NCBI GenBank assembly: GCA_016186645.1
Contig: JACPLF010000007.1
Span: 9,151-73,150 of the forward strand
Direction of reading: 5' to 3'
Length of the DNA: 64,000 nucleotides
DNA from: Candidatus Levyibacteriota bacterium
GTDB taxonomy: Bacteria > Patescibacteriota > Microgenomatia > Levybacterales > UBA12049
Shown: piece by piece, positions 25,088 through 60,640 of the stretch
Numbering within the stretch: position 1 is the first letter of the stretch
How the letters are laid out: the number at the start of each line of letters is the position of its first letter
The notes under the pieces: generated by a model
The model's input: only the letters and a program-made list of their open reading frames with translations
Databases searched by the model: none
Told to the model about the DNA's origin: nothing
Position numbers and translations under genes: made by a program

Positions 25088-25089
25088 AA

Positions 25090-25183: not shown

Positions 25184-25186
25184 ATT

Positions 25187-25300
25187 CTAGCCTTGTCTTT
25201 GTTTGTGCTTTGGATTTTCGCAAACAACTCTTACCACACCTCTTCGTCTTATGATTTTGCATTTGACACATCTTTTTTTAACACTTGCTTGAACCTTCAT
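25187..25300 (-). CDS. rpmJ: 50S ribosomal protein L36 (not in ORF track; 37 aa)
   Basis: Translated by hand as [37 protein letters not shown] with the C-x2-C-x12-C-x4-H ribbon. Sits in the canonical infA-rpmJ-rpsM position. Confidence 0.85.
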
Positions 25301-25384
25301 AAAAATATTAAATATTAAATAGTAAATTGCAAAAATACATTTAAAATTTCAAATGTGTATTTACTATTTACAATTTTCTATTTG
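25301..25384. repeat. AT-rich intergenic repeat, copy B (infA/rpmJ spacer)
   Basis: Near-identical to copy C. Confidence 0.85.
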
Positions 25385-25603
25385 CTATTTATAACGGTAC
25401 ACTATTCTTCCTTTCGTCTTGTCATACGGAGTCATTTCGACTCTGACCTTATCTCCGGGCAAGATTTTTATAAAATTCATTCTCATTTTGCCCGATAAGT
25501 GACAAAGAATTATAGCTCCATTTGTCAGTTCTACTCTAAAAAGGGTATTGGGTAAAGACTCCTTAACAACGCCTTCTATCTCAAAAGATCCCTGGTGTGC
25601 CAT
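25385..25603 (-). CDS. infA: translation initiation factor IF-1
   Basis: S1-like fold: [20 protein letters not shown]... Confidence 0.95.
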
Positions 25604-25692
25604 AGTAAATTTAAAATAGTAAATTGCAAAAATACATTTAAAATTTCAAATGTGTATTTACTATTTACAATTTTCTATTTGCTATTGAAGCC
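25604..25692. repeat. AT-rich intergenic repeat, copy C (map/infA spacer)
   Basis: Near-identical to copy B. Confidence 0.85.
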
Positions 25693-25723
25693 AATTATAC
25701 CAGACTAGCCTCTAAAGAACAAG

Positions 25724-26512
25724 CTATTTAGTTAACACTATTGCCCCCTCGTTTGTGATGGCTATTGTTCTTTCAAAAAGTCCCGACAGACTACCATCTT
25801 TACTTTTTATAGTCCACCCATCGGAATTTGAAAATACAACCTCGCTCTTACCCATATTGTAAATTGCTTCAATTGCAATTGTCATACCAATTTTCAGAAG
25901 AGGCGTTTCCAAGACAGAGCCATCCAAAAAGCCTGGAACTTCAGGATCTTCATGAAGCTCCCGACCTACTCCATGGCCAATCAGACTTCTTACAACAGAA
26001 TATCCTTGCCCTTCCACAACTTTCTGAATTGCTTTTGAAATATCTCCTACTCTATTTCCTGCTTTTGCAGCTTCTATTCCCTCCCACATCGCCTTCTCCC
26101 CAGTCTTCAGAAACTTATCCACCTCATCCAAACTTTGAACTTGCCTGCCCACCGAGGAGGGGAACCTTGAACTTTTAACTCGCACCGTCTGTGCGGCGTC
26201 CGTGTGAAACCCTTTATAATATACTCCGCAATCTATTCCAACTACATCTCCATCTTTCAATCTATGTTCTGTTGGAACTCCATGAACAACAACGTCATTT
26301 ATAGAGATGCAAATCGTGTGCTTATACCCATCAACTTTCTTAAATCCGGGCTCAGCACCTTTTTCAATAATTAACTTTTCCGCCAATTGGTCTAATTCCA
26401 ATTCTGAAACTCCGGCTTTTGCATGCTTTAAAACTTCTTTTAAAACTTCTGCCAATATTTCTCCACCCTCTCGCATTATCTCAATTTCCTCTTTTGTTTT
26501 TACCTTAATCAT
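25724..26512 (-). CDS. map: type I methionine aminopeptidase
   Basis: Metal ligands in DVVGIDCGV and GHGVGRELHE. Confidence 0.9.
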   Translation of the reverse strand: MIKVKTKEEIEIMREGGEILAEVLKEVLKHAKAGVSELELDQLAEKLIIEKGAEPGFKKVDGYKHTICISINDVVVHGVPTEHRLKDGDVVGIDCGVYYKGFHTDAAQTVRVKSSRFPSSVGRQVQSLDEVDKFLKTGEKAMWEGIEAAKAGNRVGDISKAIQKVVEGQGYSVVRSLIGHGVGRELHEDPEVPGFLDGSVLETPLLKIGMTIAIEAIYNMGKSEVVFSNSDGWTIKSKDGSLSGLFERTIAITNEGAIVLTK

Positions 26513-27639: not shown

Positions 27640-28179
27640 CTAGCTTTTAATTTGCTCCATTATTTCTTTGTGAATTTCTTCAATTGATTTTTCTCCATCT
27701 ATCTCAACCAGTATCCCATTTTGTTTATAATAATCCAAAACCGGTTCTGTTAATTCATGAAAAAGTTCAATTCTTTTTCTAATAGCTGTTAGTGTTTCAT
27801 CTTCACGACTATCCCCATTTCTATAAGAAAGCCTCCACAATGCTTCCCTGTCTGAAACTTTCAGATAGACAACTTTATCAACTCCATTCTCAAACATTTT
27901 TACCTGCTCCAAAGTTCTTGGAAATCCATCCAGAATATAGCCTTTTTTATATTCAGGTTTTTTAAGATATTCGCTCACTATTTCAACTGTTTTTTCATCA
28001 GGAATCAGATATCCGGCGTTCATAATCTCTTTTATGTAACGACCAAGCGGAGTTTTTTCTTTTGCCATTTCTCTGAAAATATGTCCTGTTGAAAGATAAG
28101 GAATCTTGAGGTTTTCAGACAAAAGATTTCCTTGAGTCGATTTTCCTGCTCCTTGAATACCTATCAGTATAATCTTCAT
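27640..28179 (-). CDS. adk: adenylate kinase
   Basis: GIQGAGKSTQ, YILDGFPRT. Canonical position after secY. Confidence 0.8.
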   Translation of the reverse strand: MKIILIGIQGAGKSTQGNLLSENLKIPYLSTGHIFREMAKEKTPLGRYIKEIMNAGYLIPDEKTVEIVSEYLKKPEYKKGYILDGFPRTLEQVKMFENGVDKVVYLKVSDREALWRLSYRNGDSREDETLTAIRKRIELFHELTEPVLDYYKQNGILVEIDGEKSIEEIHKEIMEQIKS

Positions 28180-28221
28180 AGTAAATTTAAAATAGTAAAC
28201 TTCAAATACACATTTAAGATT
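28180..28221. repeat. AT-rich intergenic repeat, partial copy D
   Basis: CATAGTAAATTTAAAATAGTAAAC... left flank of the four-helix-bundle gene. Confidence 0.6.
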
Positions 28222-28608
28222 TTAAATAGATCTTTTTCCTTTAATTGTTAGTATACTTGACGCAAAGATATTTGAATACTCATCAAGTTCTTTTAAGAAT
28301 GGATCCGCTTTTTCTTTAGATGTGCGTTTGGAATCTCTTAGAAGCGCTACCCATACTTTACTTTCGTTGGAAGATTTTAAGCAATATTGAATAAATATTA
28401 AAAACTCTTTTTTAGAACTTGCCGATTGACCTTCAATGTAGTTGCCCAAGATGCTTGTACCGCTTCTTAAAAGTTGATCGCCAATAATATATGATACACG
28501 ATCTTTCGGAAGATTATCAATAAATTCTATTAATCTCAAAATAAAACTATAAAGCTTTCTTTTAAATTCCTCTTTATTAAATTGTTTTTTTATATTTTCT
28601 GTTTGCAT
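28222..28608 (-). CDS. four-helix-bundle protein (TIGR02436 / 23S-rRNA-intervening-sequence-protein family)
   Basis: QLLRSGTSILGNYIEG..KKEFLIFIQYCLKSSNESKVW matches the family consensus. Inserted between secY and adk and flanked by AT-rich repeat copies. Confidence 0.65.
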   Translation of the reverse strand: MQTENIKKQFNKEEFKRKLYSFILRLIEFIDNLPKDRVSYIIGDQLLRSGTSILGNYIEGQSASSKKEFLIFIQYCLKSSNESKVWVALLRDSKRTSKEKADPFLKELDEYSNIFASSILTIKGKRSI

Positions 28609-28646
28609 TTTAAAATGTATTTTTACAATTTACTATTTACAATTTA
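28609..28646. repeat. AT-rich intergenic repeat, partial copy E
   Basis: ...TTTTACAATTTACTATTTACAATTTACTATT right flank of the four-helix-bundle gene. Confidence 0.6.
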
Positions 28647-29936
28647 CTATTTTTTGTTGTAGCCTTCGTAATTTCGCATAACCAGCTGAGCTTCAATTGA
28701 TTTGATGGTTTCCAAAACCACAGACACAACGATTAAAATTCCCGTTCCTCCCAACATAAGTGTTTGTACATTTGTGAATGCGCGGGCAATAGTTGGAAAA
28801 ATTGCAATAGTTCCCAAAAATATTGCACCAGCTAATGTTATACGAGTCAAGATGTAATTTAAATAGCTTGCTGTAGGAGTACCTGGTCTAATTCCAGGAA
28901 TAAAACCTCCATATTTCTGTATTTCCCCAGCTATTTTTTTTGGATTAAAAATAACAGCAGTATAAAAATATGTAAAGCCTACAACTAATATAAAGTAAAG
29001 GCCATTGTAGAATGCGCCATTGGGATCAAATAATCCTGTTATGGTTGCAGCAAGATTACTTAAGAATCTATTGGGAGATGCAGTTAAATAATTAGCAACT
29101 ACTGATGGCAAAAGAACTAAGGAAACAGCAAAGATTATTGGGATTACACCTGCCTGATTCACTCGAAGCGGCAGATGAGTTGATTGACCTCCATACATTT
29201 TATTTCCCCTGACTCTTTTTGCATAATAAACAGTTATTCGGCGGGTTCCTTCATTAATAAGAATTATGGATGCAATTACAAACAAACCTATTGCCAAGAA
29301 CGTGATTAAATTGAAAAAATTAGCAGCATTTACAGTTGATAATGTCTGGCCAAAAATAACAGGAATTCTTCCGACAATTCCCGCAAATATAAGAAGAGAA
29401 ATTCCATTTCCGACTCCTTTTTCAGAAATTAACTCTCCCAACCAAACTAAAAGCATTGTTCCTGCAGTCATTGTTGCAACAAAAGATATGATGTCAATTG
29501 TACTTAGGGTAGAAATAATTCCCTGACTACGCAAAAGCGCGTACATACCAATTGATTGCAAAATTGCTAAAGGAACTGTCAGCATCCTTGTGTACTGATT
29601 GATCTTTTGTCTTCCTGATTCTCCTTCTTTAGATAATGCTTCGAGTTTTGGGAAAACCATTGTTAATAATTGTAAAATAATGGAAGCATTAATATATGGG
29701 TTAAGTCCTAGTGCCATTACAGAAAAGTTGGCAAGCGTTCCTCCTGAAAAAATATCCAAAAGGCCTAGGAATTGATTTTGTGAAAAAAGGGATTTTAATG
29801 CGTCTAGATTTACACCTGCAACAGGTATATGGGCGAAGATTCTAAAGACGACGAAAATAGCTGCAGTAAATAAAAGCTTTTTCCTGACGTCTGGAGTTTT
29901 TATACTTTTACTAAAAATTCCAAAAATATTGTTCAT
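28647..29936 (-). CDS. secY: preprotein translocase subunit SecY
   Basis: 10 TM helices, SecY signatures. Confidence 0.95.
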
Positions 29937-30036
29937 AGTAGTGATTTAAAATTTTAAATAGTAAATTGCAAACTTACATTGCAAATTTGAAATTTCAAAT
30001 GTGTATTTACTATTTTAAATTTACTATTTACAATTC
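29937..30036. repeat. AT-rich intergenic repeat, copy F (secY/rplO spacer, abuts rplO stop)
   Basis: Full-length copy including the internal inverted repeat. Confidence 0.8.
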
Positions 30037-30468
30037 TACTTTCCCTCCGGCTTTCAAAATTTTCTTTGCCGCTCCTTTTGACACGGGTAATTTAACTGTT
30101 AAAGCAATATTAAGGTTTCCATCTCCCAAAATTTTGATTCCGTTTTTCTTGGCATAATCGGGATTCACAATTTTATTGTCAATAAGTGATCCTAGATCAA
30201 CTACCGTGCCTTTTTTTAATAAATTCAAAACCTTTACATTTACAATAATTGGACCTTTCCTGAAAGACTTATTCTTGCCTTTTCCTCTCATAAACGGAAG
30301 CCTTTTAATAAGAGTTAGTGCTCCGCCTTCAAAAGTCAAAGGAATATTTCCTTTTGCTTTTTGTCCTTTTGTTCCTCGTCCACTTGTTTTTCCGCGCCCT
30401 GATCCATGGCCCTGACCTAGTCTTTTTTGTCTTGATTCCGTGATTTTTTTCAAAGATGAAAGTTTCAT
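30028..30468 (-). CDS. rplO: 50S ribosomal protein L15
   Basis: GRGTKGQKAKGN..FEGG. Confidence 0.95.
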   Translation of the reverse strand: MKLSSLKKITESRQKRLGQGHGSGRGKTSGRGTKGQKAKGNIPLTFEGGALTLIKRLPFMRGKGKNKSFRKGPIIVNVKVLNLLKKGTVVDLGSLIDNKIVNPDYAKKNGIKILGDGNLNIALTVKLPVSKGAAKKILKAGGKVEL

Positions 30469-31075: not shown

Positions 31076-31419
31076 TAGAATTCCAGTCCTCCTTCCCTAG
31101 CTCCCTGTGCGATCGAGCTTATTCTTCCATGATATGAATAGCTTCCGCGATCAAATACAACTTTTTTGATTTTTTTGTCAATTGCCTTTTTCGCCAACAA
31201 GACTCCAACTGCTTTTGCTCTCGCGCTTTTGCCTGTCAACTTTTCTTTTAGATGCTTTTCTGAAACTCCGACAATTGTCTTTCTAGCGTCATCATTTATG
31301 AGCTGCGCATACACCAAACGATTAGACTTAAACACAGAAAGTCTCGGCCTGTCCTTTGTACCCCTGATCTTAGATCTCACTCTGATTTCTCTTTTTATTT
31401 TGTTGTCTAACTTTCTCAT
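31075..31419 (-). CDS. rplR: 50S ribosomal protein L18
   Basis: L18 signature. Confidence 0.95.
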   Translation of the reverse strand: MRKLDNKIKREIRVRSKIRGTKDRPRLSVFKSNRLVYAQLINDDARKTIVGVSEKHLKEKLTGKSARAKAVGVLLAKKAIDKKIKKVVFDRGSYSYHGRISSIAQGAREGGLEF

Positions 31420-31499
31420 ATTAATTTTAAATATTAAATATCAAATTGTAAAAATACATTTAAAATTTAAAATGTGTATTTACTATTTACAATTTACTA
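31420..31499. repeat. AT-rich intergenic repeat, copy G (rplR/rplF spacer)
   Basis: Full-length copy. Confidence 0.8.
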
Positions 31500-32051
31500 T
31501 CATTTCGCTCCTAATGCTTTTGCTGCTTTTCCCACTTTTCTTCTTATTTTTTCATCCTTGTATTTTATACCTTTCCCTTTATATGGCTCGGGCGGTCTTA
31601 TTGCTCTTATTCTGGATGCCATATTTCCAACCATATCTTTATCGCTACCCAGAACTGTAATTACATTTTCATCAACCGTGAACGTTAACCCATCTGGAGC
31701 CGTAATCTTTACAGGATGAGAAAAACCAACAGAGAGAGTCAAATCCCGGCCTGCTGCTTGAACTCTGTATCCAACCCCTGAAAGTTCGAGCTTTTTCTCA
31801 AAACCCGTTAAAACACCGGTAACCATATTTGAAATCATAGCTCTTGTTAATCCCAAAGATGGCTTTAATCCTTCATTATTCTTGTCTTTCAAAGAAACTA
31901 CCAAACGCCCCTCTACTGATTTTACGTCAATTCCTTGTGGGAGCTTGAAAGAAAGATTTCCTTTAGGTCCGCTAATTTTAACAATATCCTGATCAAAAGC
32001 AACGTTCACGCCTTCTTTGATCATAACTGGTTTTTTTGCAAGTTTAGACAT
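31500..32051 (-). CDS. rplF: 50S ribosomal protein L6
   Basis: L6 two-domain signature. Confidence 0.95.
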   Translation of the reverse strand: MSKLAKKPVMIKEGVNVAFDQDIVKISGPKGNLSFKLPQGIDVKSVEGRLVVSLKDKNNEGLKPSLGLTRAMISNMVTGVLTGFEKKLELSGVGYRVQAAGRDLTLSVGFSHPVKITAPDGLTFTVDENVITVLGSDKDMVGNMASRIRAIRPPEPYKGKGIKYKDEKIRRKVGKAAKALGAK

Positions 32052-32121: not shown

Positions 32122-32163
32122 CCCGCCCGACTTCGCCTGCGAGCGAACTCGCTGGCGGGCGGG
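32122..32163. promoter_or_regulatory. GC-rich stem-loop between rpsH and rplF
   Basis: CCCGCCCG..GCGAG-CGAA-CTCGC..CGGGCGGG flanked by AACTTTTAAC repeats. Confidence 0.4.
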
Positions 32164-32179
32164 CACTTTGAACTTTTAA

Positions 32180-37490: not shown

Positions 37491-38315
37491 TTATTTTTGC
37501 TTGCCCCTCGAAGCGAAATCGTTGTGGGGTCCTTTCATAAAAGTATCTTCAATAACATCTACCGCATCTCTCATAAGTAAAATCAATTTGTTATCAATAA
37601 CTTTATAAGCATTGATCATGTTTGCAGTCAATATCTCTACTCCTTCGATATTTCTTGCAGCCCTGTAAACATTTTCTGCTTCTTTTGCCTTAGGCATTAC
37701 CAATAAAACTCTGGAAGCATTTTTTATTCCCAAATTTTCCAAAACTTGAGCCATTAATTGTGTTTTAGGTGTTATTTCTTCCAATCCTTTTACGATTTTT
37801 AGTTCGTTGTCTTTAAGCTTTGAGGAAAGTGCTGAGAAAAGCGCAAGGGTTTTCATTTTTTTTGAGAGACTGAGAGAAAAATCTCGGGGTCTTGGTCCAA
37901 AAGCAAGTCCTCCGCCGACAAAAATAGGAGCTCTTTTTGAGCCGTGGCGGGCGCGTCCTGTACCTTTTTGCTGCCAGACTTTTTTGGTTGTTTTATTTAC
38001 TTCTCCTCTGTCTTTTGTCTTGACTGTTCCCTGTCTTTGATTTGCCAAATAAACTCTGACCGCTTGGGCCATAAGAGAATCATTTATTTTTGCGCCAAAT
38101 ACTTCAGTCGGCAAACTAATGCTGCCTGATACTTTTCCTTTTGTGTCAAAAACAGAAGCGTTTAAACCTGCTCCCTTTGTTTTTGCCAAAACAGGAATTT
38201 TAGCTTCAATCTTAGCCTTTTTAGCTGATTTTTTTACAACAATTTTAGGAGCTTTAATATTCTTTTTCGCAACTTTTAATTTTGAACTTTTAACTTTTAA
38301 CTTTTTAGCTGGCAT
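37491..38315 (-). CDS. rplD: 50S ribosomal protein L4 with ~55-aa Lys/Ala-rich N-terminal extension
   Basis: L4 core (QKGTGRARHGS..). Unusual KAKK-rich N-terminus. Confidence 0.9.
   Translation of the reverse strand: MPAKKLKVKSSKLKVAKKNIKAPKIVVKKSAKKAKIEAKIPVLAKTKGAGLNASVFDTKGKVSGSISLPTEVFGAKINDSLMAQAVRVYLANQRQGTVKTKDRGEVNKTTKKVWQQKGTGRARHGSKRAPIFVGGGLAFGPRPRDFSLSLSKKMKTLALFSALSSKLKDNELKIVKGLEEITPKTQLMAQVLENLGIKNASRVLLVMPKAKEAENVYRAARNIEGVEILTANMINAYKVIDNKLILLMRDAVDVIEDTFMKGPHNDFASRGKQK
37504..37529. repeat. GC-rich palindromic motif CCCCTCGAAG-hairpin-GGGG (overlaps rplD 3-prime end)
   Basis: CCCCTCGAAGCGAAATCGTTGTGGGG. Confidence 0.6.
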
Positions 38316-43705: not shown

Positions 43706-44185
43706 TTATCTTGTTACCGATATTACTTCACCTAGCTCTTGATTACCAGCGGCAACAGAAACAGTTATTCTGCTATTTGTGGCGCTCTGGGATATCTCAT
43801 ATTCAGTGTTATATGCCACTCCACAAGCAGTTATAGCGACTCCATCATTAGCCGCACCAGGATCAGATGGTAAAGCAGCAATATAGTCTGGTACTAAAAG
43901 AGCACATATGTCTGCCTCTGCTGCCCCTGCACCGTCGTCTGTAGCAATTGCAGCAACGGTTTCTGTAATACCAGCGGGAACAGCTCCTGCATTATCTGCC
44001 ATATATTGATTGACTGCATTAAGAATTGCATTAACATCGCTTCTTCTTTTTGTGTTATTTGCCTGAGAGAATTGTCTTGCCGGATTAATAGCGATAAGTG
44101 TGATTGCCAATAAGACTGCGAGGATTCCGATAACAACTAGGAGCTCTATTAATGTGAAACCTTTTTGATTTTTAAATAATTTCAT
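43706..44185 (-). CDS. type IV pilin (major pilin candidate)
   Basis: Class III signal MKLFKNQKG/FTLIELLVVIGILAVLL, with a Cys pair for a C-terminal disulfide loop. Confidence 0.8.
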   Translation of the reverse strand: MKLFKNQKGFTLIELLVVIGILAVLLAITLIAINPARQFSQANNTKRRSDVNAILNAVNQYMADNAGAVPAGITETVAAIATDDGAGAAEADICALLVPDYIAALPSDPGAANDGVAITACGVAYNTEYEISQSATNSRITVSVAAGNQELGEVISVTR

Positions 44186-44256
44186 GGGCAGTTATTTACT
44201 ACACAATCAGTATAGTCATAAAAAAAAGTCGTTGTCAAGGGGGAGTTTTGTAAAAT

Positions 44257-45393: not shown

Positions 45394-45822
45394 TCATAAT
45401 TCCTTCCAGTTTGAAAATGTATAATATCCGTTACTATAATTCATTTGCGCCTGAACAGTTCTTTTAAAATTTCCATTTTGCCCAACCGAGACAACAGTCT
45501 TTGGATTAGCTCCTGTTACTGTTATTACTGCTGTTCCTGTACCAACTGTTAATGTCTCCCCTGCATAATTAGGATCTCGCAACAATCTTAAGAGCGCATT
45601 CTCAACTCCGCTTTCTGCCGTATAATATGCCGATGTCCCCTCCTGAAGCTTACTTGCGGAAATAGAGTTGGCAATAATAATTATTATTGCTCCAGAAGTA
45701 ATTGTCAATGAAATCAATACAAAAAATAATAATGTTATTAACGCCTGCCCCTTTTGAAGATGAGAAATGAGAAATGAGAAATGAGAAATATCTAGTAATT
45801 TGTTTTTAAAATTATTTTTCAT
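45394..45822 (-). CDS. pilin-like protein with long repeat-encoded leader (atypical cleavage motif G/QALIT)
   Basis: Leader MKNNFKNKLLDISHFSFLISHLQKG then a hydrophobic helix. Thr not Glu at +5. Confidence 0.45.
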   Translation of the reverse strand: MKNNFKNKLLDISHFSFLISHLQKGQALITLLFFVLISLTITSGAIIIIIANSISASKLQEGTSAYYTAESGVENALLRLLRDPNYAGETLTVGTGTAVITVTGANPKTVVSVGQNGNFKRTVQAQMNYSNGYYTFSNWKEL

Positions 45823-45847
45823 TTTTCACCTTTCATTTTTCATTTTG
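45762..45847. repeat. heptanucleotide tandem repeat cassette: (GAGAAAT)x4 inside the pilin-like leader plus upstream (TTTTTCA)-like x4 arm
   Basis: Exact 4x GAGAAAT on plus (ATTTCTC on the coding strand, encoding ISHFSFLISH). Inverted arm tttttcatttttcacctttcatttttca spans the RBS/start. Confidence 0.85.
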
Positions 45848-46387
45848 TTACTGTCTTCTCAAAGAAATATTTGTTTGAAAATTCCTTACTTCCCGTCCTG
45901 AAATTCTCTCTGTTTTTGAAGTAACTGTAAAATTAATTCTTAATGTATTCTCTATTCCTCCTGCATTTCCCAGACGCTGTACTGAAAAAGCCGAGATACT
46001 AGTTCCATAGTTATTTAAATTATTTGTTCCGAAGTTATTAACAAGAATTAAATTATTATTTGCATCTATACTGTAAGCATAATTTATTCCATCAATAACT
46101 ATTTGAAAATTATCATTAGTATCTCCATTGGAAACAGGAATATTTATGCTTTGCGCCCTATGAATATCATATGCAAGTCTTGCAAGAATATAATTACCAT
46201 CCTGTTCAACGCTGGATGTTGCGTTGGATTCTGACTGAACATCAAGGGCTGAAACAAAAACTGAAGTTAATATTGTTAACAAAACAGAAAGAATAGACAT
46301 ATATAATAGCAGCTCAACTACCGTGACCCCAATTTGCGAATTTCTTAAATTGAAAATTGAAAATTGAAAATTTAAAATTTTTTTCAT
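45848..46387 (-). CDS. minor pilin / pseudopilin with long leader
   Basis: MKKILNFQFSIFNLRNSQIG/VTVVELLLYMSIL, Glu at +5. Confidence 0.55.
   Translation of the reverse strand: MKKILNFQFSIFNLRNSQIGVTVVELLLYMSILSVLLTILTSVFVSALDVQSESNATSSVEQDGNYILARLAYDIHRAQSINIPVSNGDTNDNFQIVIDGINYAYSIDANNNLILVNNFGTNNLNNYGTSISAFSVQRLGNAGGIENTLRINFTVTSKTERISGREVRNFQTNISLRRQ
46350..46377. repeat. heptanucleotide tandem repeat (TTGAAAA)x3+1 in the 179-aa pilin-like leader
   Basis: Coding strand AATTTTC x3 encodes FQFSIFN. Confidence 0.85.
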
Positions 46388-46395
46388 GGCGCTTG

Positions 46396-46459
46396 CCCCG
46401 TTGATGTGACACCGTGAGGCGAGGATGTAAACCTCGCGAACGGCGAACGCTCTACGGGG
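46396..46459. promoter_or_regulatory. GC-rich nested-hairpin element in the 5-prime UTR of the 179-aa pilin-like gene (overlaps stop of the 665-aa gene)
   Basis: CCCCGT...GCGAGG-ATGTAAA-CCTCGC...ACGGGG, ending 8 nt before the ATG. Confidence 0.45.
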
Positions 46460-48449
46460 AATAATTTCCTGTCATATCATAAAAAATCGGGGTTGATAAT
46501 GAATCTGTTGTTGAAAAAAAAGCTTTGTATTTAAAACATTGTCCAGGATTAATATTTATAGGAACTGCAAAATTAAATGTCTGCACACCGGAAGTTTCAC
46601 TTGTTGTAAAAAAAGTTGATGAGGTAGCATCAGGCCCTACAAAAGAAAAACTTGCCCCATCGCAATTTCCGGAAACTTCCGGGGAAACTGCAATTTGGAA
46701 TTGAAGATCTGTGGAATTCGGCCTGTTTATAGACGTATCAAATCTATTAAAAGCTGTTGAATATCCTGAATCAAATACCCCTGAAATAAAAGTGCCGGAA
46801 CTTGCATAGGCTCCCTCCGGCCCTCCCTCAATAATTTTAAATTCAGAAGATGCATCACCTGTCATGATATATGAATATGCATCACCATCAGCCTCCAATA
46901 CTGCTGCGATGCCGTTTATTTTTTTCCCGTCCTGATCGCCTAGATTTAGCCCTCCGCAGCGGACTGGACTGGATTCATTGGAAATGTCAATCACCTGATA
47001 CTCTTCTGAGCCCTCCGTACCTTCTTTACCCACAATAATAGCTCTGTTACTGGGTACAACTGTTACTGCTTTCGGATCCATGCCGTTGGCGTCATAACTG
47101 CCAATTACCGGACGGTTTCCTGTTTTTACAGATGTATCTACAATAAAAAATTCCGGAAGCGCGTCCTGTTTGCCCGTTACAAGATACACTCTTGTTCCCG
47201 TAGTATTGACAAATAAATCTTTCGCGTCTTTTCCGGTTAGGTCTGCCTGGCCGACAATTGTTAAGTTATTTGGATTACTTACGTCAACAATCTGTAACTC
47301 AATATTTGATCCCTTTATTGTCACATATGCATAGGAGCCAACAACTACAACCCGTGTTCCATCTCCCACGGTTACCCCATCCGGATCAAGAAGCGACCGA
47401 GAGCCGCTTTTACTTGAAAGGTCAAAGCTGTAAAGTTTTTTTTCAGTAATCATATAGCCAACATCACCCAAAACCCATACCTGGTCACCCTTTTTATTTG
47501 TTGGAGCATCAAAGAAGCCTACTTCCGAATACTTGTTATTTGCGTCTTTAGTCCTAAGATCAATAATGACGACTTCCTTATGGGGATCGTCGGTTGCGAT
47601 ATAAGCATAATCTGTTTCTCCAAATACGCCATTTGTTTTATATCCGTCAAATGTTCCGTCAATTGATGGAACCGGAGGATTTGTATTGCTAATTGCAACA
47701 TTAGCAAAAGATACTCCTGATGAATTATCGCCAGTACCAACAAAGGTTTTGCCTTCAATGGCTGTTATCGCATCCGCAACGCCCTGCTTTGGCAAATCAA
47801 GGCTTGCGACAATAAATTGTCCTGGCTTACACCAATCCCCATTTCCTCCGGCTCCCAATGTGACTTCTCCGCCATTTGTATTGGTAACAACTGTACCGGA
47901 TTTTGTTCCTGTCTCAAAATCCGCAACTGTAGTTTGGGTAAAAGAATTATTATCCAGATATCTTGTAATAAATAAACTCGCACTAACTGTAGATGCGTAT
48001 GGTTGTGTCCAGGAGATTTCAATATCTACTTTTTTACTTGATGGATCTACAGATCCACCACTTGTGACGATTGCCCCGCTGGATGCTCTCTGAACATCTT
48101 CTATGTCAACTCTTTGCGTAAATGAATTGATATTTGCAGATCCAGTTGCCAGAGTCCAGGTTGATCCAGATATCACAGGATGGAAAGTTCCATTAACTGC
48201 AAAACTGGTCCAGCCTTTTTCCCTGACACTTCTAACTGCATCTACAGTTTCGTTTAGCAAATAAACTGCTTGTATTCTCTGGGTTTGCTGAGCTTTACCC
48301 TCACGCGATGATACTAATCCTGTTAATAACGCAGGAAGTAAAATAGCAGCAAGTCCCATTGCCAAAACTATCTCAACAAGCGACTGCCCCCTCTCAAAAT
48401 GAGATATGAGAGATGAGAGATGAGAAATGTTTAATCCTTTATTTTTCAT
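46452..48449 (-). CDS. large pilin-like protein: prepilin N-terminus fused to ~600-aa extracellular domain (candidate tip adhesin)
   Basis: MKNKGLNISHLSSLISHFERGQ/SLVEIVLAMGL class III signal. Large Gly/Thr/Asp-rich domain with repeated beta-rich segments. Confidence 0.55.
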   Translation of the reverse strand: MKNKGLNISHLSSLISHFERGQSLVEIVLAMGLAAILLPALLTGLVSSREGKAQQTQRIQAVYLLNETVDAVRSVREKGWTSFAVNGTFHPVISGSTWTLATGSANINSFTQRVDIEDVQRASSGAIVTSGGSVDPSSKKVDIEISWTQPYASTVSASLFITRYLDNNSFTQTTVADFETGTKSGTVVTNTNGGEVTLGAGGNGDWCKPGQFIVASLDLPKQGVADAITAIEGKTFVGTGDNSSGVSFANVAISNTNPPVPSIDGTFDGYKTNGVFGETDYAYIATDDPHKEVVIIDLRTKDANNKYSEVGFFDAPTNKKGDQVWVLGDVGYMITEKKLYSFDLSSKSGSRSLLDPDGVTVGDGTRVVVVGSYAYVTIKGSNIELQIVDVSNPNNLTIVGQADLTGKDAKDLFVNTTGTRVYLVTGKQDALPEFFIVDTSVKTGNRPVIGSYDANGMDPKAVTVVPSNRAIIVGKEGTEGSEEYQVIDISNESSPVRCGGLNLGDQDGKKINGIAAVLEADGDAYSYIMTGDASSEFKIIEGGPEGAYASSGTFISGVFDSGYSTAFNRFDTSINRPNSTDLQFQIAVSPEVSGNCDGASFSFVGPDATSSTFFTTSETSGVQTFNFAVPININPGQCFKYKAFFSTTDSLSTPIFYDMTGNYSP

Positions 48450-48475
48450 TTTTCATTTCTAATTTTTCATTTTTA
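48401..48475. repeat. heptanucleotide repeat cassette (GAGANAT)x4 in the 665-aa pilin-like leader plus inverted (TTTTTCA)-like arm
   Basis: gagatat gagagat gagagat gagaaat, then tttttca tttttca tttctaa tttttca. Confidence 0.8.
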
Positions 48476-48991
48476 CAATGATTCCACCTGAGTTACCGTA
48501 CCATAAATATTTAGATAAATTCTTTGTAATTTAGAACTAGGATTATCTTGCAATTCTATAGTCAGAACTCCTGAAATTGTTCCGCTTAATTTGGAAAAAA
48601 TAACATCGAATCCGCTATTATTGAGTTGCATATTATTATCCAAATTTATTATGGAATTTCCGGAATCTTCCGGGGAATAAGTTGTTCCATGAAAAGTAAT
48701 ATATCGGTTTGAGTCAAAATGGATTCCGTATGAATCGTAAGATTCTCGTCCTTCCGTATCTCCGATCATTGATTTTAATTGCTGTTGTCTTAAATCTGAG
48801 ATCAATACATCCTGAGTTGAAGTTAAAGAAGCTGTTTGTTGAGAACGTATAAGATTTATTGTGATAAATCCCAATAGGGTCATGATTATTGACATTACAA
48901 TAATCATTTCAATCAGGGAAAAACCCTTCTGAAATGAGAAGTGAGAGATGAGAGTTGAAAGATTTCTAATTTTTGATTTCTCATTTCTCAT
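48473..48991 (-). CDS. minor pilin / pseudopilin with long leader
   Basis: MRNEKSKIRNLSTLISHFSFQKG/FSLIEMIIVMSII. Confidence 0.6.
   Translation of the reverse strand: MRNEKSKIRNLSTLISHFSFQKGFSLIEMIIVMSIIMTLLGFITINLIRSQQTASLTSTQDVLISDLRQQQLKSMIGDTEGRESYDSYGIHFDSNRYITFHGTTYSPEDSGNSIINLDNNMQLNNSGFDVIFSKLSGTISGVLTIELQDNPSSKLQRIYLNIYGTVTQVESL
48929..48991. repeat. heptanucleotide inverted-repeat cassette encoding the whole leader of the 172-aa pilin-like gene
   Basis: gaaatga gaagtga gagatga gagttga ... atttctc atttctc. Coding strand reads MRNEKSKIRNLSTLISHFSFQ. Confidence 0.8.
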
Positions 48992-48994
48992 TTT

Positions 48995-50050
48995 TTAACG
49001 TCCCCCAACTTGACCAATAAGTCCGTAAATAGGAGCAATAATAGCAAGCATCATTCCGCCAACCAATGCTCCGATTGCCACCAAAAGAATTGGCTCAAGA
49101 AGCGCAGTTGCAGTTTTTAATTTAGCTGACACTTGATAATCTAAGAACTCCGAAATTTCCGACATGGACTTATCTAATGATCCGCTTCTTTCTCCTGCTT
49201 CTGTGATTCTTATTATTATACTTGGGAAAACTTTTCTATTATTTTTGAACCCTTCCGAAAGTTTATGACCAGCTGCCACTGCTTCTTTTGCATGCCTTAC
49301 TCCCATTTCTACCTCATGACTCACAACAACATTTTCCGTTAATTCCAAAGCGCTTGTGATAGGTATACCTGCATTTAAAAGCAGATAAAAGTTTCTTGAA
49401 AATTTTGTCAGGTCAATGTCTTTTGCTAATCCTGATAAAATTGGGAGTTTAAAGATTAAATTTAACAGGAACTTCTTCTTTTTTTTATAAATAAAGAGTA
49501 TTAAGAAAGAAAATATTGCCAACCCCACAATTACAGGAATTGTTTGACTTAGTATTGCATTTGACATAAAAATTAATATTTGGGTAGGCAAAGGAAGATC
49601 AACCCGAAGTCTTGAAAAAACGCTGGAAATTTTTGGTACAACTACAATAAGAATCATAAGGAGGACTGCAAAAAATACAAAAACTATAAATAATGGGTAG
49701 ATTAAAGCAGATTTTATTTTATCTGAAAACTCCATGTCTTTTTTTAAATTTTCTTTTAAATCTTTCAGGGTAACATCCAGTGTTCCCGCCTCCTCCGATG
49801 CTTTAATAATACTTGTGGCAACTCTTGAGAAAACATTTGGAAATTTGGAAAAAGTAAAATATATATGTTTTCCCTGCGTTAAATCTTCTCTTAACACTTC
49901 TAGAAATTTTTTTTGATTTTTTCGGGAATCTTCCAACAATGCGTCAACTGCCTCCAAAAGCGGAATTCCGGCAGAAAGCATAGTTCCTAAATCACTTAAC
50001 ATGCCAAGCTTGTCGTTATTTGATAAAGTAATATTTTCTATTTTTGCCAT
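48995..50050 (-). CDS. pilC: type IV pilus platform protein PilC (GspF family, short form)
   Basis: GspF-domain topology with three TM segments and conserved cytoplasmic domain. Confidence 0.75.
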   Translation of the reverse strand: MAKIENITLSNNDKLGMLSDLGTMLSAGIPLLEAVDALLEDSRKNQKKFLEVLREDLTQGKHIYFTFSKFPNVFSRVATSIIKASEEAGTLDVTLKDLKENLKKDMEFSDKIKSALIYPLFIVFVFFAVLLMILIVVVPKISSVFSRLRVDLPLPTQILIFMSNAILSQTIPVIVGLAIFSFLILFIYKKKKKFLLNLIFKLPILSGLAKDIDLTKFSRNFYLLLNAGIPITSALELTENVVVSHEVEMGVRHAKEAVAAGHKLSEGFKNNRKVFPSIIIRITEAGERSGSLDKSMSEISEFLDYQVSAKLKTATALLEPILLVAIGALVGGMMLAIIAPIYGLIGQVGGR

Positions 50051-50079: not shown

Positions 50080-51735
50080 CTATTTATTCTGAATTTTCGT
50101 AACCCTTAACACTTCTTCAATTGTGGTTAATCCCTTCATCACTTTCTCAAGTCCATCATCCAACATTGTTGTCAAACCCTGCTCAATTGCTTTTTGCAAC
50201 AGGACATCAGAGTCCTGTCTTTTTGTTATTAAATCGCGTATGTCCTTTGTTACTTCCAATACTTCAAAAACTCCAATTCTCCCGGAATATCCGGTAAGAT
50301 GACAAATTTTGCAACCACTGCCTTGATAAATAATAATACTATTTTTCTCACCTATATATTTATTGATAATTTCTTGCGGTAAATTTTTCAAAAGTTCTTC
50401 TTTCGTAATAACTCTTGTGCCTTTGCACATCTCACAGATTTTTCTGACAAGTCTTTGAGCGATTATCACATTTACGGTTGAGGCAACCAGAAAAGGTTCG
50501 ATATTCATATCAATAAGGCGGGGAAGCGCAGTTGCGGCATCATTAGTATGAAGAGTTGATAAAACCAAATGTCCTGTCAAAGATGCATTTACAGCAATTC
50601 CTGCTGTTTCGCTGTCTCTAATTTCTCCAACAAAAATAATATTTGGATCTTGCCTCAAAATTGATCTTAACCCATTTGCAAAAGTCAGATTTGTTTTCGC
50701 ATTAACATTAATTTGATTAACTCCTTTTATCCTGTACTCGGCAGGATCTTCAATGGTTGTAATATTTTTTTCCCTGGTATTTAATATTTTTAAAATTGCA
50801 TAAATGCTCGTTGTCTTTCCGCTACCTGTAGGTCCTGTGGATAAAATCATACCGTAGGTTTTGCTATATGCATTTGTAACTTTTTTTAAATCTTTTTCAT
50901 TCATTCCAAGATCAATAAGTGAAAATTTCCTAAATTTTGAGGATAAAAGTCTTAATACTGCTTTTTCACCTTCTGTTACCGGCATTATAGAAACACGAAC
51001 ATCTATTTCTTCTTCTTCCAAATTAATCCTCATTTTTCCATCCTGAGGACTTAAATGCTCATCTGTCCTAAGACGGGACAGAATCTTTATTCTTGTTACT
51101 ATCTGGTCATGAAGACTTTTCGGCAAAAAAAGTACATCCTGTAAAATTCCGTCTATTCTAAAACGAACTAGAGAATTTTTTTCCTCCGGCTCTATGTGGA
51201 TGTCTGATGCTTTATCCTGATATGCATAATCTATCAGAAGATCAACTATTTTTGACATTGGTATTTCGCTAGTCTTTATTAACTGATCAAATGTTCTTTG
51301 CAGATCTTTTCTGTAGATTCTCAAAGTATTGGAAATATCCTGATCCGTTGCTAAAAAAACAATAACAGGCAAACCTATTTTTTTTGATATCATTGAAGTC
51401 AGCTCTTTATCCGAAGGGTCAACCATTGCAATCTTGACTCCGGCTGCATCTCTGGCAAAAGGAATTACCTTTTTCTTTCTCGCCATTTTCTCGGGAACTA
51501 TATTAAAAACATCAGGGGCAATTGTGGTCTTTGCCAAAACAATAAAAGGGACCTTTAGAAAATCTGAAATTAATATTCCCAGATTTTCATCCGATACAAT
51601 ATCTTTCTCAACCAGAGTTTCGGCAATAGTGTAACCCGCATTTTTAGCGTCTTCTTCAATTTGGGCAAATCCCTTTTCATCAATGAGGCCGTTTTTAAGA
51701 ACCAGAGATTTTAGCTGTTCATTTGTAACAAGCAT
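50080..51735 (-). CDS. pilB: type IV pilus assembly ATPase PilB (GspE family)
   Basis: Walker A GPTGSGKTT, Asp box, His box, tetracysteine CxxC..CxxC. Confidence 0.9.
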   Translation of the reverse strand: MLVTNEQLKSLVLKNGLIDEKGFAQIEEDAKNAGYTIAETLVEKDIVSDENLGILISDFLKVPFIVLAKTTIAPDVFNIVPEKMARKKKVIPFARDAAGVKIAMVDPSDKELTSMISKKIGLPVIVFLATDQDISNTLRIYRKDLQRTFDQLIKTSEIPMSKIVDLLIDYAYQDKASDIHIEPEEKNSLVRFRIDGILQDVLFLPKSLHDQIVTRIKILSRLRTDEHLSPQDGKMRINLEEEEIDVRVSIMPVTEGEKAVLRLLSSKFRKFSLIDLGMNEKDLKKVTNAYSKTYGMILSTGPTGSGKTTSIYAILKILNTREKNITTIEDPAEYRIKGVNQINVNAKTNLTFANGLRSILRQDPNIIFVGEIRDSETAGIAVNASLTGHLVLSTLHTNDAATALPRLIDMNIEPFLVASTVNVIIAQRLVRKICEMCKGTRVITKEELLKNLPQEIINKYIGEKNSIIIYQGSGCKICHLTGYSGRIGVFEVLEVTKDIRDLITKRQDSDVLLQKAIEQGLTTMLDDGLEKVMKGLTTIEEVLRVTKIQNK

Positions 51736-57258: not shown

Positions 57259-57283
57259 CCCTCCGAAGCTTTAGCGAAGGAGG
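57259..57283. repeat. GC-rich palindromic motif (fusA upstream region)
   Basis: CCCTCCGAAGCTTTAGCGAAGGAGG. Confidence 0.5.
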
Positions 57284-60548: not shown

Positions 60549-60557
60549 ATTTTTAAA

Positions 60558-60640
60558 AATTAGAGATGAGAGGTTAGAAATGAGAGATATTTTTCATTTC
60601 TCATTTTTCATTTCTCATCTTGGTATTATATCTCATTTGC
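60558..60640. repeat. solo degenerate copy of the pilin-leader heptamer cassette between rpoC stop and rpsL start
   Basis: Minus strand ATGAGAAATGAAAAATGAGAAATGAAAAATATCTCTCATTTCTAACCTCTCATCTC resembles the 5-prime end of the 172-aa pilin-like gene but is stopped after 5 codons. Confidence 0.7.

What the first reader, a model, noticed from the sequence alone, without database searches (positions are those of the whole stretch)
45394..48991. Four pilin-like paralogues whose long leaders are built from tandem heptanucleotide repeats (candidate slipped-strand phase-variation system)
All four pilin-like genes downstream of the major pilin (45394-45822, 45848-46387, 46452-48449, 48473-48991) have unusually long leaders of 20-25 aa sharing a (L)ISH(F/L)S(F/S)L motif before the G/xxxxE prepilin cleavage site. 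At the DNA level every leader is encoded by a period-7 tandem repeat: (ATTTCTC)x4, (AATTTTC)x3, (ATNTCTC)x4 and (CTCAYYT)x3. Three 7-nt units give one 7-aa peptide unit, so the peptide is kept only when the unit number changes by three. A change of one or two units frameshifts the mature pilin. Each repeat block is also half of an inverted repeat with a (TGAAAAA)n-like arm covering the RBS and start codon, with several short upstream ATG-stop mini-frames. This matches the architecture of contingency loci switched by slipped-strand mispairing, here applied to a whole family of minor pilins or adhesins. I am not aware of heptamer-encoded prepilin leaders being described before.
Basis: seen in the sequence. 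Interest (0 to 1): 0.78.

Follow-up and report, generated by a model that had tools for sequence, protein, structure and literature searches.

The report
Hypervariable heptamer repeats in pilin leaders
In this Candidatus Levybacteria genome, the cut-off leader peptides of four minor pilins are encoded by short 7-base tandem repeats that change length unusually fast between strains, but the same repeats sit at many housekeeping gene starts, so this looks like a genome-wide repeat process and not a proven pilin on/off switch.

Summary
All four minus-strand pilin-like genes (48473-48991, 46452-48449, 45848-46387, 45394-45822) have 20-25-aa leaders encoded by period-7 arrays. Three arrays pair with a purine-rich (ATGARAA)n arm that carries the start codon.

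For repeat dynamics:
- In 118 homologues of the last gene, the mature N-terminus is almost invariant, but leader lengths step by 7 aa (7/14/21/28 and 11/18/25/32/39/46).
- Two assemblies differ by 2 SNPs in 12.4 kb plus one indel, which is exactly two heptamer units in this leader.
- One natural allele is out of frame.
- Simulated ±1 or ±2 unit changes silence two of the four genes completely and the other two in one of the two shifted frames.

Against a dedicated contingency system:
- Arrays have only 3-5 units.
- Almost every allele seen is in frame.
- Three assemblies of the window strain are identical.
- Some units carry ATG, so the gene stays on at any unit count.
- The same element family lies between rpoC and rpsL. 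Other period-7 arrays and hairpins sit at ribosomal-protein gene junctions, in recX linkers and at the L4 N-terminus.

Period 7 is the only enriched period in this Levybacteria clade. Best reading: hypermutable heptanucleotide repeats, tolerated because prepilin leaders are cleaved off.

The parts
50080..51735 (-). pilB-like assembly ATPase, first gene of the operon
   Evidence: Pfam MshEN and T2SSE on the identical gene in L001
48995..50050 (-). pilC-like platform protein
   Evidence: Pfam T2SSF. Its relatives identify the organism as Candidatus Levybacteria
48473..48991 (-). g4, minor pilin or pseudopilin with a 23-aa leader ending QKG|FSLIE
   Evidence: Pfam N_methyl 27.9 bits, above the 21.2 cut-off. 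TIGR02532 23.8 bits, above 16.3, with the model starting at residue 21
48962..48993 (-). g4 5' arm (ATGAGAA-type units). It carries two ATGs 7 nt apart and is itself translated (MRNEKSKIRN)
   Evidence: Tandem Repeats Finder: 4.6 copies, 84%. Inverted repeats I2 and I4. The second ATG rescues one shifted frame
48934..48963 (-). g4 3' arm: a degenerate CTCAYYT/ATYTCTC array encoding LSTLISHFSF
   Evidence: Tandem Repeats Finder: 4.3 copies, 73%; sequence
46452..48449 (-). g3, a 665-aa pilin-like protein with an LVIVD beta-propeller repeat (candidate tip protein or adhesin) and a 21-aa leader ending ERG|QSLVE
   Evidence: Pfam LVIVD, E 1.8e-10; prepilin motif read
48441..48474 (-). g3 5' arm (ATGAAAA units) with two ATG-stop mini-frames (MKN*, MKNEK*). 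The real start is the third ATG
   Evidence: Tandem Repeats Finder: 4.9 copies, 85%; sequence; inverted repeat I1, 33 nt, 79%
48399..48429 (-). g3 leader array (ATYTCTC x4.4) encoding ISHLSSLISH
   Evidence: Tandem Repeats Finder: 91% matches. Changes of ±1 or ±2 units give no usable start
46396..46459 (-). GC-rich nested hairpin filling the spacer from the g3 stop to the g2 start. It replaces the complementary heptamer arm seen at the other three genes
   Evidence: Sequence; fold; the junction cannot be aligned among relatives
45848..46387 (-). g2, pilin-like, with a 20-aa leader ending QIG|VTVVE
   Evidence: Pfam N_methyl 18.2 bits, below the 21.2 cut-off; motif read
46347..46380 (-). g2 leader array (AATTTTC x4.7) encoding NFQFSIFN
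   Evidence: Tandem Repeats Finder: 96%; score 23 in the period scan
45394..45822 (-). g1, a PilX/GspK-like minor pilin (no Glu5) with a 25-aa leader ending QKG|QALIT
   Evidence: Sources name its homologues 'pilus assembly PilX N-terminal domain-containing protein' or 'PulK'. No Pfam or NCBIfam hit
45814..45846 (-). g1 5' arm: units ATGAAAA, ATGAAAG, GTGAAAA, ATGAAAA. It contains a Shine-Dalgarno-like AAGGTG, the start codon and three short ATG/GTG-stop frames
   Evidence: Tandem Repeats Finder: 4.7 copies, 84%; sequence
45760..45789 (-). g1 leader array (ATTTCTC x4.3, perfect) encoding ISHFSFLISH. It pairs with the 5' arm as 6-bp helices separated by A·C mismatches
   Evidence: Tandem Repeats Finder: 100%. 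Fold -19.4 kcal/mol, z -2.34. OFF in both shifted frames
43706..44185 (-). Major pilin with a short, array-free leader (MKLFKNQKG|FTLIE) and its own promoter-like site at 44209-44238
   Evidence: Pfam N_methyl 39.4 bits; TTGACA-18-TATACT; leader array-free in all relatives
60553..60628 (-). Non-coding copy of the same palindromic family, (ATGARAA)n-(ATYTCTC)n, in the rpoC-to-rpsL spacer
   Evidence: Aligns with the g1, g3 and g4 elements at 72% mean identity. Fold z -3.3. Flanking genes are RpoC and S12

Best explanation
The leaders are built from hypermutable heptanucleotide microsatellites. In three of the four genes the array is one arm of a dispersed palindromic element, (ATGARAA)n-(ATYTCTC)n. 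These repeats are a lineage-wide feature of this Levybacteria clade and gather at translation-start regions.

Proposed mechanism:
1. Replication slippage adds or removes whole 7-nt units. This step is shown between near-identical strains.
2. In the minor-pilin genes the arrays lie between the start codon and the conserved Gly(-1) cleavage site. In-frame variants (±3 units, or 7 aa) only lengthen or shorten a peptide that the prepilin peptidase removes. They are tolerated and accumulate. This step is inferred.
3. Point changes in one unit spread through the array by contraction and re-expansion. Strains with almost identical mature pilins therefore carry unrelated-looking leaders. This is shown for one pair.
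4. Changes of ±1 or ±2 units shift the frame and silence the gene, unless a unit or the 5' arm supplies another in-frame ATG. This is simulated, and one natural OFF allele was found. Stochastic silencing is thus a by-product. It may sometimes be useful, but the evidence does not show a system built for switching.
5. Where a complementary purine-rich arm exists, the mRNA can fold so that the Shine-Dalgarno sequence and AUG are buried. That would tie translation to the upstream cistron. This is inferred and well supported only for g1.
For: - Period 7 only: 7 tracts in the window against 0 for periods 4-12 and 0 in shuffles. In 277 kb of non-redundant Levybacteria DNA there are 16 tracts, against 0-3 for other periods. 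All 16 lie in the clade with PilC >=70% identical.
- Location: nearly all arrays lie between -70 and +100 nt of a gene start, including pilB, L4 and ribosomal-protein genes.
- Same family in a non-coding site: the rpoC-rpsL spacer copy.
- Arrays inside other coding sequences, always in tolerant places: recX linkers between HTH domains and the L4 N-terminal extension.
- Unit-count change between near-identical strains: L020 versus L021 shows 2 mismatches and one 14-nt indel (3 versus 5 AATGTCA units) in 12,381 nt.
- A +3-unit expansion: MKNFQKG becomes MKNFQFSIFNFQKG at DNA level.
- 106 distinct g1 leaders sit on an invariant QALITLLFF mature end. 69% have lengths equal to 0 or 4 mod 7, against 29% expected.
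- Mature parts 96-100% identical carry entirely different leaders.
- In L037 versus L038 the downstream flank is 98.6% identical. The leader cannot be aligned, and the units changed in concert (TTTCGAA versus TTTTTAA).
- g4 homologues mostly have a 6-aa leader (MRTQRG), with scattered expansions to 13, 19, 23, 25, 33 and 66 aa.
Against: - Tolerance alone does not explain why the major pilin never carries an array in any locus, although its leader is also cleaved. About 95% of g1 homologues carry one.
- The start-straddling hairpin recurs at another g4 lineage with a different heptamer family: AATGATT/ATCATTY in L035. That hints at selection on RNA structure.
- All four minor pilins of this one strain carry arrays. 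That is more than expected if insertions were rare and neutral.
- Leader cleavage was not tested, and no prepilin peptidase gene was found among the window ORFs scanned.
- The reason for a 7-nt period is unexplained.
Confidence: 0.65

Rival explanations
1. A dedicated contingency (phase-variation) system. Slipped-strand changes in each leader array independently switch the four minor pilins on and off, including the LVIVD beta-propeller protein. A symbiont population could then vary its pilus-tip composition.
For: - Unit length is not divisible by 3, and the array lies in the 5' coding region. This matches neuO, where expression is ON only at multiples of 3.
- Changes of ±1 or ±2 units abolish g1 and g3, and abolish g2 and g4 in one shifted frame.
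- One natural out-of-frame allele exists: L023 with (CTCTCAT)x5, where 3 or 6 units would be needed.
- One array indel against 2 SNPs in 12.4 kb implies slippage roughly 6,000 times the per-site substitution rate. This rests on a single event.
- Arrays are perfect or near perfect in g1 and g2.
- The major pilin is array-free.
- Assembly gaps or contig ends fall at these junctions.
Against: - Arrays have only 3-5 units. Characterised heptanucleotide switches have 3-53 units (typically about 20) or 13-24 units.
- Three assemblies of the window strain are identical at all four arrays.
- About 117 of 118 scorable g1 alleles and all checked g4 alleles are in frame. In neuO, 65.6% of genomes are OFF.
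- Units containing ATG keep the gene ON at any count.
- The same repeats occur at essential genes.
- Ten loci of one population showed no array indel.
- Caveat: metagenome consensus sequences hide minority OFF variants, so the test on natural alleles is weak.
Confidence: 0.2
2. The selected feature is the RNA hairpin. The purine-rich arm (Shine-Dalgarno plus AUG) pairs with the pyrimidine-rich leader array. This occludes translation initiation until a ribosome finishing the upstream cistron opens the stem (translational coupling), or it marks an RNA processing site. The heptamer periodicity would be incidental.
For: - g1 hairpin: -19.4 kcal/mol, z -2.3. Non-coding copies and ribosomal-protein junction hairpins: z -2.3 to -3.9.
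- The hairpins fill the stop-to-ATG spacers without a separate Shine-Dalgarno sequence.
- The Shine-Dalgarno-like AAGGTG lies inside the g1 arm.
- The same architecture recurs with a different heptamer pair in L035 g4.
Against: - The g3 and g4 folds are no better than shuffles (z about -0.7), and g2 has no arm.
- Most orthologous leader arrays in L005, L006, L007, L011 and L018 have no complementary upstream arm.
- No Rfam family matches.
- No transcript or structure-probing data exist.
Confidence: 0.25
3. The long leader is a conserved functional peptide, for example a special recognition signal. The repeats would then merely reflect how it is encoded.
For: Three leaders share ISH(F/L)S(F/S)L.
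Against: - Any frame of a 7-nt repeat yields the same cyclic peptide.
- Orthologues have 6-7-aa canonical leaders or unrelated heptamer peptides such as NVKCQMS, KFQISNF, KFKVQSS and HTSYFIL.
- The same DNA element is non-coding between rpoC and rpsL.
Confidence: 0.02

Closest known systems
neuO (E. coli K1 capsule O-acetyltransferase) heptanucleotide repeat, 5'-AAGACTC-3'
   Same: A heptanucleotide tandem repeat lies in the 5' coding region. Full-length translation occurs only when the unit number is divisible by 3, and units change by strand slippage (PMC13001214).
   Different: neuO has 3-53 units (commonly about 20). Most genomes are OFF, and switching is measurable within a culture. The repeat-encoded peptide stays in the enzyme. 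Here there are 3-5 units, nearly all alleles are ON, and the peptide is presumably cleaved off. The repeats are also genome-wide.
Neisseria opa genes: CTCTT repeats in the signal-peptide coding region (from my own knowledge, not checked here)
   Same: The repeat lies inside the cleaved leader of a surface protein, so in-frame variants are harmless and out-of-frame variants are OFF. A family of paralogues switches independently.
   Different: The unit is a pentamer and the tracts are longer. Switching is proven to be high-frequency. The leader is a Sec signal peptide, not a class III (prepilin) leader.
Haemophilus influenzae hmw1A/hmw2A 7-bp repeats (ATCTTTC)
   Same: Heptanucleotide repeats control an adhesin, and the unit sequence resembles ATTTCTC (PMC8262952).
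   Different: The repeats lie between two promoters and grade transcription. Tracts have 13-24 units and are not translated.
Streptococcus gallolyticus pil1 leader-peptide switch
   Same: Repeat number changes the length of a short upstream peptide next to a stem-loop, and this affects pilus gene expression (PMC3894217). It is reminiscent of the ATG-stop mini-frames and hairpin at g1 and g3.
   Different: The repeats are GCAGA pentamers and the pilus is sortase-dependent. The mechanism is transcription attenuation through a terminator, and no terminator-like site overlaps the arrays here.
Cyanobacterial STRR (short tandemly repeated repetitive) heptanucleotide sequences (from my own knowledge; the paper read only uses them for fingerprinting)
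   Same: A lineage-specific, genome-wide excess of tandem heptanucleotides of several unit types, mostly outside conserved coding sequence, with unknown function.
   Different: The phylum and the unit sequences differ. STRR are not known to encode signal-peptide extensions.
Rickettsia palindromic elements, and REP/BIME-type dispersed palindromes (from my own knowledge)
   Same: Dispersed, hairpin-forming short repeats occur at gene junctions. Rickettsia palindromic elements can be translated in frame within genes.
   Different: Those elements are not built from 7-nt tandem units. No associated transposase, terminal inverted repeats or target duplication was identified here.

Membership tests
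Type IV pilin / pseudopilin (class III signal peptide) proteins | A leader ending in Gly(-1), followed by a hydrophobic segment of about 20 aa with Glu at +5 | tested here: met
   g4 (G|FSLIE), g3 (G|QSLVE) and g2 (G|VTVVE) meet it. g1 (G|QALIT) lacks Glu5, as GspK/PilX-type minor pilins do
Type IV pilin / pseudopilin (class III signal peptide) proteins | A match to the N-terminal methylation motif models (PF07963, TIGR02532) | tested here: inconclusive
   g4 passes both cut-offs. g2 is below the cut-off (18.2 against 21.2 bits). g1 and g3 have no hit
Type IV pilin / pseudopilin (class III signal peptide) proteins | Genomic context with a PilB-type ATPase and a PilC-type platform protein | tested here: met
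   T2SSE and T2SSF genes lie immediately upstream in the same orientation. The gene order is conserved in relatives
Type IV pilin / pseudopilin (class III signal peptide) proteins | Cleavage of the leader by a prepilin peptidase | not testable with these tools
   No Peptidase_A24 gene was found among the window ORFs scanned. N-terminal proteomics is needed
Simple-sequence-repeat contingency (phase-variable) locus | A tandem repeat with a unit not divisible by 3, inside the 5' coding region or promoter | tested here: met
   Period-7 arrays lie within codons 5-22 of all four genes
Simple-sequence-repeat contingency (phase-variable) locus | Tract-length differences between very closely related strains | tested here: met
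   Met in relatives: 3 versus 5 units between L020 and L021, which differ by 2 SNPs in 12.4 kb. Not seen for the window strain itself, where 3 assemblies are identical, nor among 10 loci of another population
Simple-sequence-repeat contingency (phase-variable) locus | Tract-length changes switch the reading frame on and off | tested here: inconclusive
   In simulation, g1 and g3 are OFF in both shifted frames, and g2 and g4 are OFF in one. One natural OFF allele exists, L023, from a coverage-1 contig. ATG-bearing units keep the L020/L021 gene ON
Simple-sequence-repeat contingency (phase-variable) locus | Long tracts and frequent OFF alleles in natural isolates | tested here: not met
   Arrays have 3-5 units, and about 117 of 118 scorable g1 alleles are in frame. 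neuO has 3-53 units and 65.6% of genomes are OFF
Simple-sequence-repeat contingency (phase-variable) locus | High-frequency, reversible switching within a clonal population | not testable with these tools
   Needs read-level or culture data
Dispersed palindromic repeats (REP/BIME, MITE or Rickettsia-palindromic-element-like) | Multiple dispersed copies of one hairpin-forming sequence family | tested here: met
   Family B has 4 copies (g1, g3, g4 and the rpoC-rpsL spacer) at 72% mean identity. Family A has 6 copies in the ribosomal-protein operon
Dispersed palindromic repeats (REP/BIME, MITE or Rickettsia-palindromic-element-like) | Mobility signatures: terminal inverted repeats with a target duplication, or an associated transposase | not tested
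   None was noticed in the window, and no systematic search was made

The most novel reading that the evidence does not exclude
A Levybacteria clade has a lineage-specific process that makes heptanucleotide repeats at translation-start regions. This process has been co-opted as a set of independent switches for the four minor pilins, including the beta-propeller tip protein. Plain arrays would give ON/OFF. Arrays with a second ATG 7 nt away would give two ON frames out of three. ATG-bearing units would give always-ON genes with variable leaders. Complementary arms would add hairpin control of translation. A host-attached, ultra-small bacterium could then diversify its pilus tip without any recombinase or extra genes.
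Probability: 0.2. Interest if true: 0.8.

Novelty: new variant of a known kind. Interest (0 to 1): 0.6.

Why it matters
Candidate Phyla Radiation bacteria such as Levybacteria are thought to depend on type IV pili for attachment and DNA uptake, and they have very few known regulators.

The work shows that minor-pilin leaders are the fastest-evolving part of the pilus operon. They change by whole 7-nt units, in 7-aa steps, between strains that otherwise differ by a handful of SNPs. This gives a concrete, testable route to pilus heterogeneity in organisms that cannot be cultured.

It also reveals a genome-wide excess of heptanucleotide repeats and hairpins at translation-start regions. The closest parallel is the unexplained STRR repeats of cyanobacteria. 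The mechanism behind the 7-nt period is unknown.

There is a practical consequence too. These arrays mislead gene callers: several 'truncated' pilins are start-codon miscalls. They also coincide with assembly gaps.

Tried and rejected
- Rfam at gathering thresholds over the whole window found only a tRNA. No known RNA family covers the hairpins.
- The metagenome scan with g3 returned a single locus, L016. It gave no strain-level series for the window lineage.
- Exact-protein look-ups for the window strain gave four Logan contigs from two runs. All are exact substrings of the window, so they show no variation.
- Cluster look-up of the four window proteins found three singletons and one protein absent from the collection.
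- The ten-locus population around P0046 had 60 SNP columns but no heptamer-array indel. It showed only a 24-nt in-frame repeat in another gene, an intergenic replacement and scaffold gaps.
- N-terminally truncated g4 homologues were tested as possible OFF alleles. L035 is intact and was simply miscalled. L034 and L036 lack a canonical start for a different, conserved reason.
- The conserved-leader-peptide idea was rejected on the comparative data.
- Paralogy as the source of leader similarity was rejected. The mature parts are unrelated beyond the pilin motif, while the elements share 72% DNA identity with a non-coding copy.
- Assembly artefact was rejected. The arrays (35 nt or less) are shorter than reads and assembly k-mers, and three assemblies agree.
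- The promoter and terminator scan found no more sites than shuffles, and no terminator at the arrays.
- A prepilin peptidase gene was looked for in 29 ORFs and not found.
- Literature searches found no description of Levybacteria pilins or of repeat-encoded prepilin leaders.

Full report
**What is there**

The region is part of a type IV pilus-like operon on the minus strand. The order is pilB (50080-51735), pilC (48995-50050), four pilin-like genes, a 377-aa gene, and then the major pilin (43706-44185), which has its own promoter-like site. I call the four pilin-like genes g4 (48473-48991), g3 (46452-48449), g2 (45848-46387) and g1 (45394-45822). PilC relatives and the source names of the encoded proteins place the organism in Candidatus Levybacteria, a Candidate Phyla Radiation lineage.

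- g4 passes the Pfam and NCBIfam prepilin-motif cut-offs.
- g2 scores just below the cut-off.
- g3 carries an LVIVD beta-propeller repeat.
- g1 has no family hit, but its homologues are named PilX-N-terminal or PulK-like.
- g2, g3 and g4 have the Gly(-1)...Glu(+5) motif. g1 has Thr at +5.

**Checking the observation**

Tandem Repeats Finder reports a period-7 array in every leader:

| Gene | Array | Copies | Matches |
|---|---|---|---|
| g1 | 45760-45789 | 4.3 | 100% |
| g2 | 46347-46379 | 4.7 | 96% |
| g3 | 48399-48429 | 4.4 | 91% |
| g4 | 48934-48963 | 4.3 | 73% |

It also reports purine-rich period-7 arms at 45814-45846, 48441-48474 and 48962-48993.

A period scan found 7 period-7 tracts in the window. 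It found none for any other period from 4 to 12, and none in shuffles.

The arms are complementary at g3 (33 nt, 79%) and g4 (18 nt, 89%). At g1 they fold into 6-bp helices interrupted by A·C mismatches (-19.4 kcal/mol, z -2.3). The g3 and g4 folds are not better than shuffles. g2 has no arm, only a GC-rich hairpin.

The ATG-stop mini-frames are present upstream of g1 and g3.

The shared 'ISHFSF' peptide is not independent evidence. A 7-nt repeat gives the same cyclic heptapeptide in every frame.

**The repeats are not specific to pilins**

- The g1, g3 and g4 elements align at 72% mean identity with a non-coding copy in the rpoC-rpsL spacer (60553-60628).
- A second palindromic family, with AATAGTA/AATTGTA units, fills the stop-to-ATG spacers at L15→SecY, →IF-1, IF-1→L36, L36→S13 and L6→L18.
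- Further arrays lie upstream of EF-G, in the two inter-domain linkers of RecX, and in the N-terminal extension of L4.
- In 277 kb of non-redundant Levybacteria DNA there are 16 period-7 arrays, against 0-3 for any other period. All 16 lie in the sub-clade closest to the window, and almost all lie within -70 to +100 nt of a gene start.

**Comparative evidence on the leaders**

The closest species-level relative, L007, has short canonical leaders on the g4, g3 and g2 orthologues (MKTQRG, MKKQIG, MKNFVSQKG). Its g1 orthologue carries a different array, (AATGTCA)x5. Other relatives carry (AAATTTC)x5, (ACAATTA)x4, (CAAAGTT)x5 or (ACTTCAT)x5 at g1 or g3.

Among the 120 best g1 homologues, 118 could be scored for a leader:

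- The mature N-terminus is essentially invariant (QALITLLFFVL).
- There are 106 distinct leaders.
- Leader lengths cluster in two series with a 7-aa step: 7/14/21/28 and 11/18/25/32/39/46. These hold 69% of leaders, against 29% expected.
- Examples: MKNFQKG becomes MKNFQ[FSIFNFQ]KG, and MKTKFKIKEKG becomes MKTKFKI[QNSKFKI]KEKG.

At DNA level the first example is 1 versus 4 AATTTTC units. Within clusters at 90% identity, mature parts that are 96-100% identical carry unrelated leaders.

In one such pair, L037 and L038, the downstream flank is 98.6% identical. The leader cannot be aligned, and the units differ in concert (TTTCGAA versus TTTTTAA). This is what contraction followed by re-expansion would produce.

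g4 homologues mostly keep a 6-aa leader, with scattered expansions to 13, 19, 23, 25, 33 and 66 aa.

**Direct evidence for slippage**

L020 and L021 are two independent assemblies. Across 12,381 aligned bases they differ by 2 mismatches and a single indel. The indel is exactly two AATGTCA units in the g1-orthologue leader, 3 versus 5 units. Taken at face value, slippage at one array is thousands of times faster than substitution at one site. This rests on a single event.

The unit contains ATG, so an in-frame start exists at any unit number and the gene stays ON.

One short, low-coverage contig, L023, has ATG...(CTCTCAT)x5. There the ATG frame ends in TGA and the mature frame has no start codon. 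It is an apparent OFF allele that would need 3 or 6 units to be in frame.

**Would the window's own genes switch?**

I simulated unit changes:

- g1 and g3 are OFF in both shifted frames.
- g2 is rescued in one frame by an upstream GTG.
- g4 is rescued in one frame by a second ATG 7 nt downstream of the first.
- Changes of ±3 units simply alter leader length by 7 aa.

**Evidence against a purpose-built switch**

- The arrays have 3-5 units. In neuO, the direct precedent for a heptanucleotide repeat in a 5' coding region that is ON only at multiples of three, tracts have 3-53 units and 65.6% of genomes are OFF. The hmwA heptamer tracts have 13-24 units.
- Three assemblies of the window strain from two further sequencing runs are base-for-base identical.
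- A ten-locus population showed no array indel.
- About 117 of 118 scorable g1 alleles are in frame.
- Apparent truncations in g4 were gene-calling artefacts or a different phenomenon.

Metagenome consensus sequences hide minority variants, so this does not exclude low-level switching.

**Interpretation**

The best-supported account is that a heptanucleotide-specific slippage process operates across this clade. Its products survive where they do little harm: spacers, linkers, N-terminal extensions and, above all, prepilin leaders that are removed at Gly(-1). In-frame variants accumulate and out-of-frame variants are mostly purged. I give this a confidence of 0.65.

Two observations keep the more interesting readings alive:

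- The major pilin leader is also cleaved, yet it is never colonised.
- The hairpin that straddles the start codon recurs with a different heptamer pair in another lineage.

These readings overlap with the main account, so the confidences are not meant to sum to one. I give a dedicated contingency function about 0.2. I give an RNA-hairpin role, such as translational coupling or processing, about 0.25 as the primary selected feature.

The conserved-peptide reading is rejected.

**Novelty**

Repeat-encoded, frame-sensitive 5' coding regions are known (neuO; Neisseria opa, from my own knowledge). I found no description of repeat-built prepilin leaders, of Levybacteria pilins, or of a heptamer excess in Candidate Phyla Radiation genomes. 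I therefore class this as a new variant of a known kind.

The unexplained restriction to a 7-nt period resembles the cyanobacterial STRR repeats (from my own knowledge). It is the most intriguing open point.

Noticed in passing
window 25080-25190, 25300-25400, 25585-25700, 29935-30045, 31415-31505 (minus strand): Copies of an ~80-nt palindromic element with arms of AATAGTA/AATTGTA units. At four of the five sites the element fills the whole spacer from the upstream stop codon to the next ATG, with no separate Shine-Dalgarno sequence: L15→SecY, IF-1→L36, L36→S13 and L6→L18. The fifth copy lies in the leader upstream of IF-1. Fold z-scores are -2.3 to -3.9, except the L6→L18 copy at -1.0. The elements may act in translational coupling or RNA processing.
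   Followed up: partly
window 28178-28652 (minus strand): A 128-aa gene of the 23S rRNA-intervening-sequence protein family (PF05635, 64 bits; 28222-28608) sits exactly in the loop of a split copy of that palindromic element. The arms are at 28622-28652 and 28178-28208, between SecY and adenylate kinase.
   Followed up: partly
window 7770-7801 and 7954-8004 (recX, 7603-8085, minus strand); 38281-38305 (L4, 37491-38315): Heptamer arrays are translated inside housekeeping proteins, but only in the linkers between the RecX HTH domains and in the N-terminal extension of L4.
   Followed up: partly
window 46396-46459, 32122-32164, 57260-57283; relatives P0066, P0085, P0049, P0061, P0077; L016 g4: GC-rich hairpin cores are embedded in AT-rich heptamer arrays. 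At 32122-32164 the same array sequence flanks the core on both sides. In relatives such cores are translated inside pilin leaders, giving leaders of up to 66 aa. This may be a second small insertion element that targets the arrays.
   Followed up: no
L034 2692-2740 (JBGGHG010000965.1) and L036 1829-1885: In two independent assemblies the g4 orthologue has no ATG, GTG or TTG start. Its reading frame continues directly from the pilC stop codon (TAA AAA ATC AAA ... KSFG|FTLVEL). This suggests a non-canonical start (ATC) or termination-reinitiation.
   Followed up: partly
L011 about 2880-2980 and 6662-6762 (CAZPZA010000027.1); L003 start = window 46380: Runs of 100 N sit exactly at the pilC→g4 and g3→g2 junctions of one relative. 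One Logan contig of the window strain begins at the edge of the g2 array. These junctions seem to break assemblies, through repeats or heterogeneity.
   Followed up: no
L017 4847-4873, L018 5449-5478, L024 5445-5474, L035 2905-2940: Arrays of AATGATT units with one AAGGATT variant lie just upstream of g2 or g4 starts. Changing ATG to AGG in one unit creates a Shine-Dalgarno-like AAGGA 7 nt before the next unit's ATG. This may bear on why the period is 7.
   Followed up: no
window 25700-25735 (minus strand): A TTGTTC-17-TATAAT promoter-like site lies immediately upstream of the palindromic element that precedes infA. This was read by eye and not scanned.
   Followed up: no
L024-L033, about position 8943 of L024: A 24-nt in-frame tandem repeat (CCCACTCCTACCCCCACTTCCACC) varies in copy number among strains. 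It lies in a Pro/Thr-rich 332-340-aa protein encoded next to the major pilin gene.
   Followed up: no
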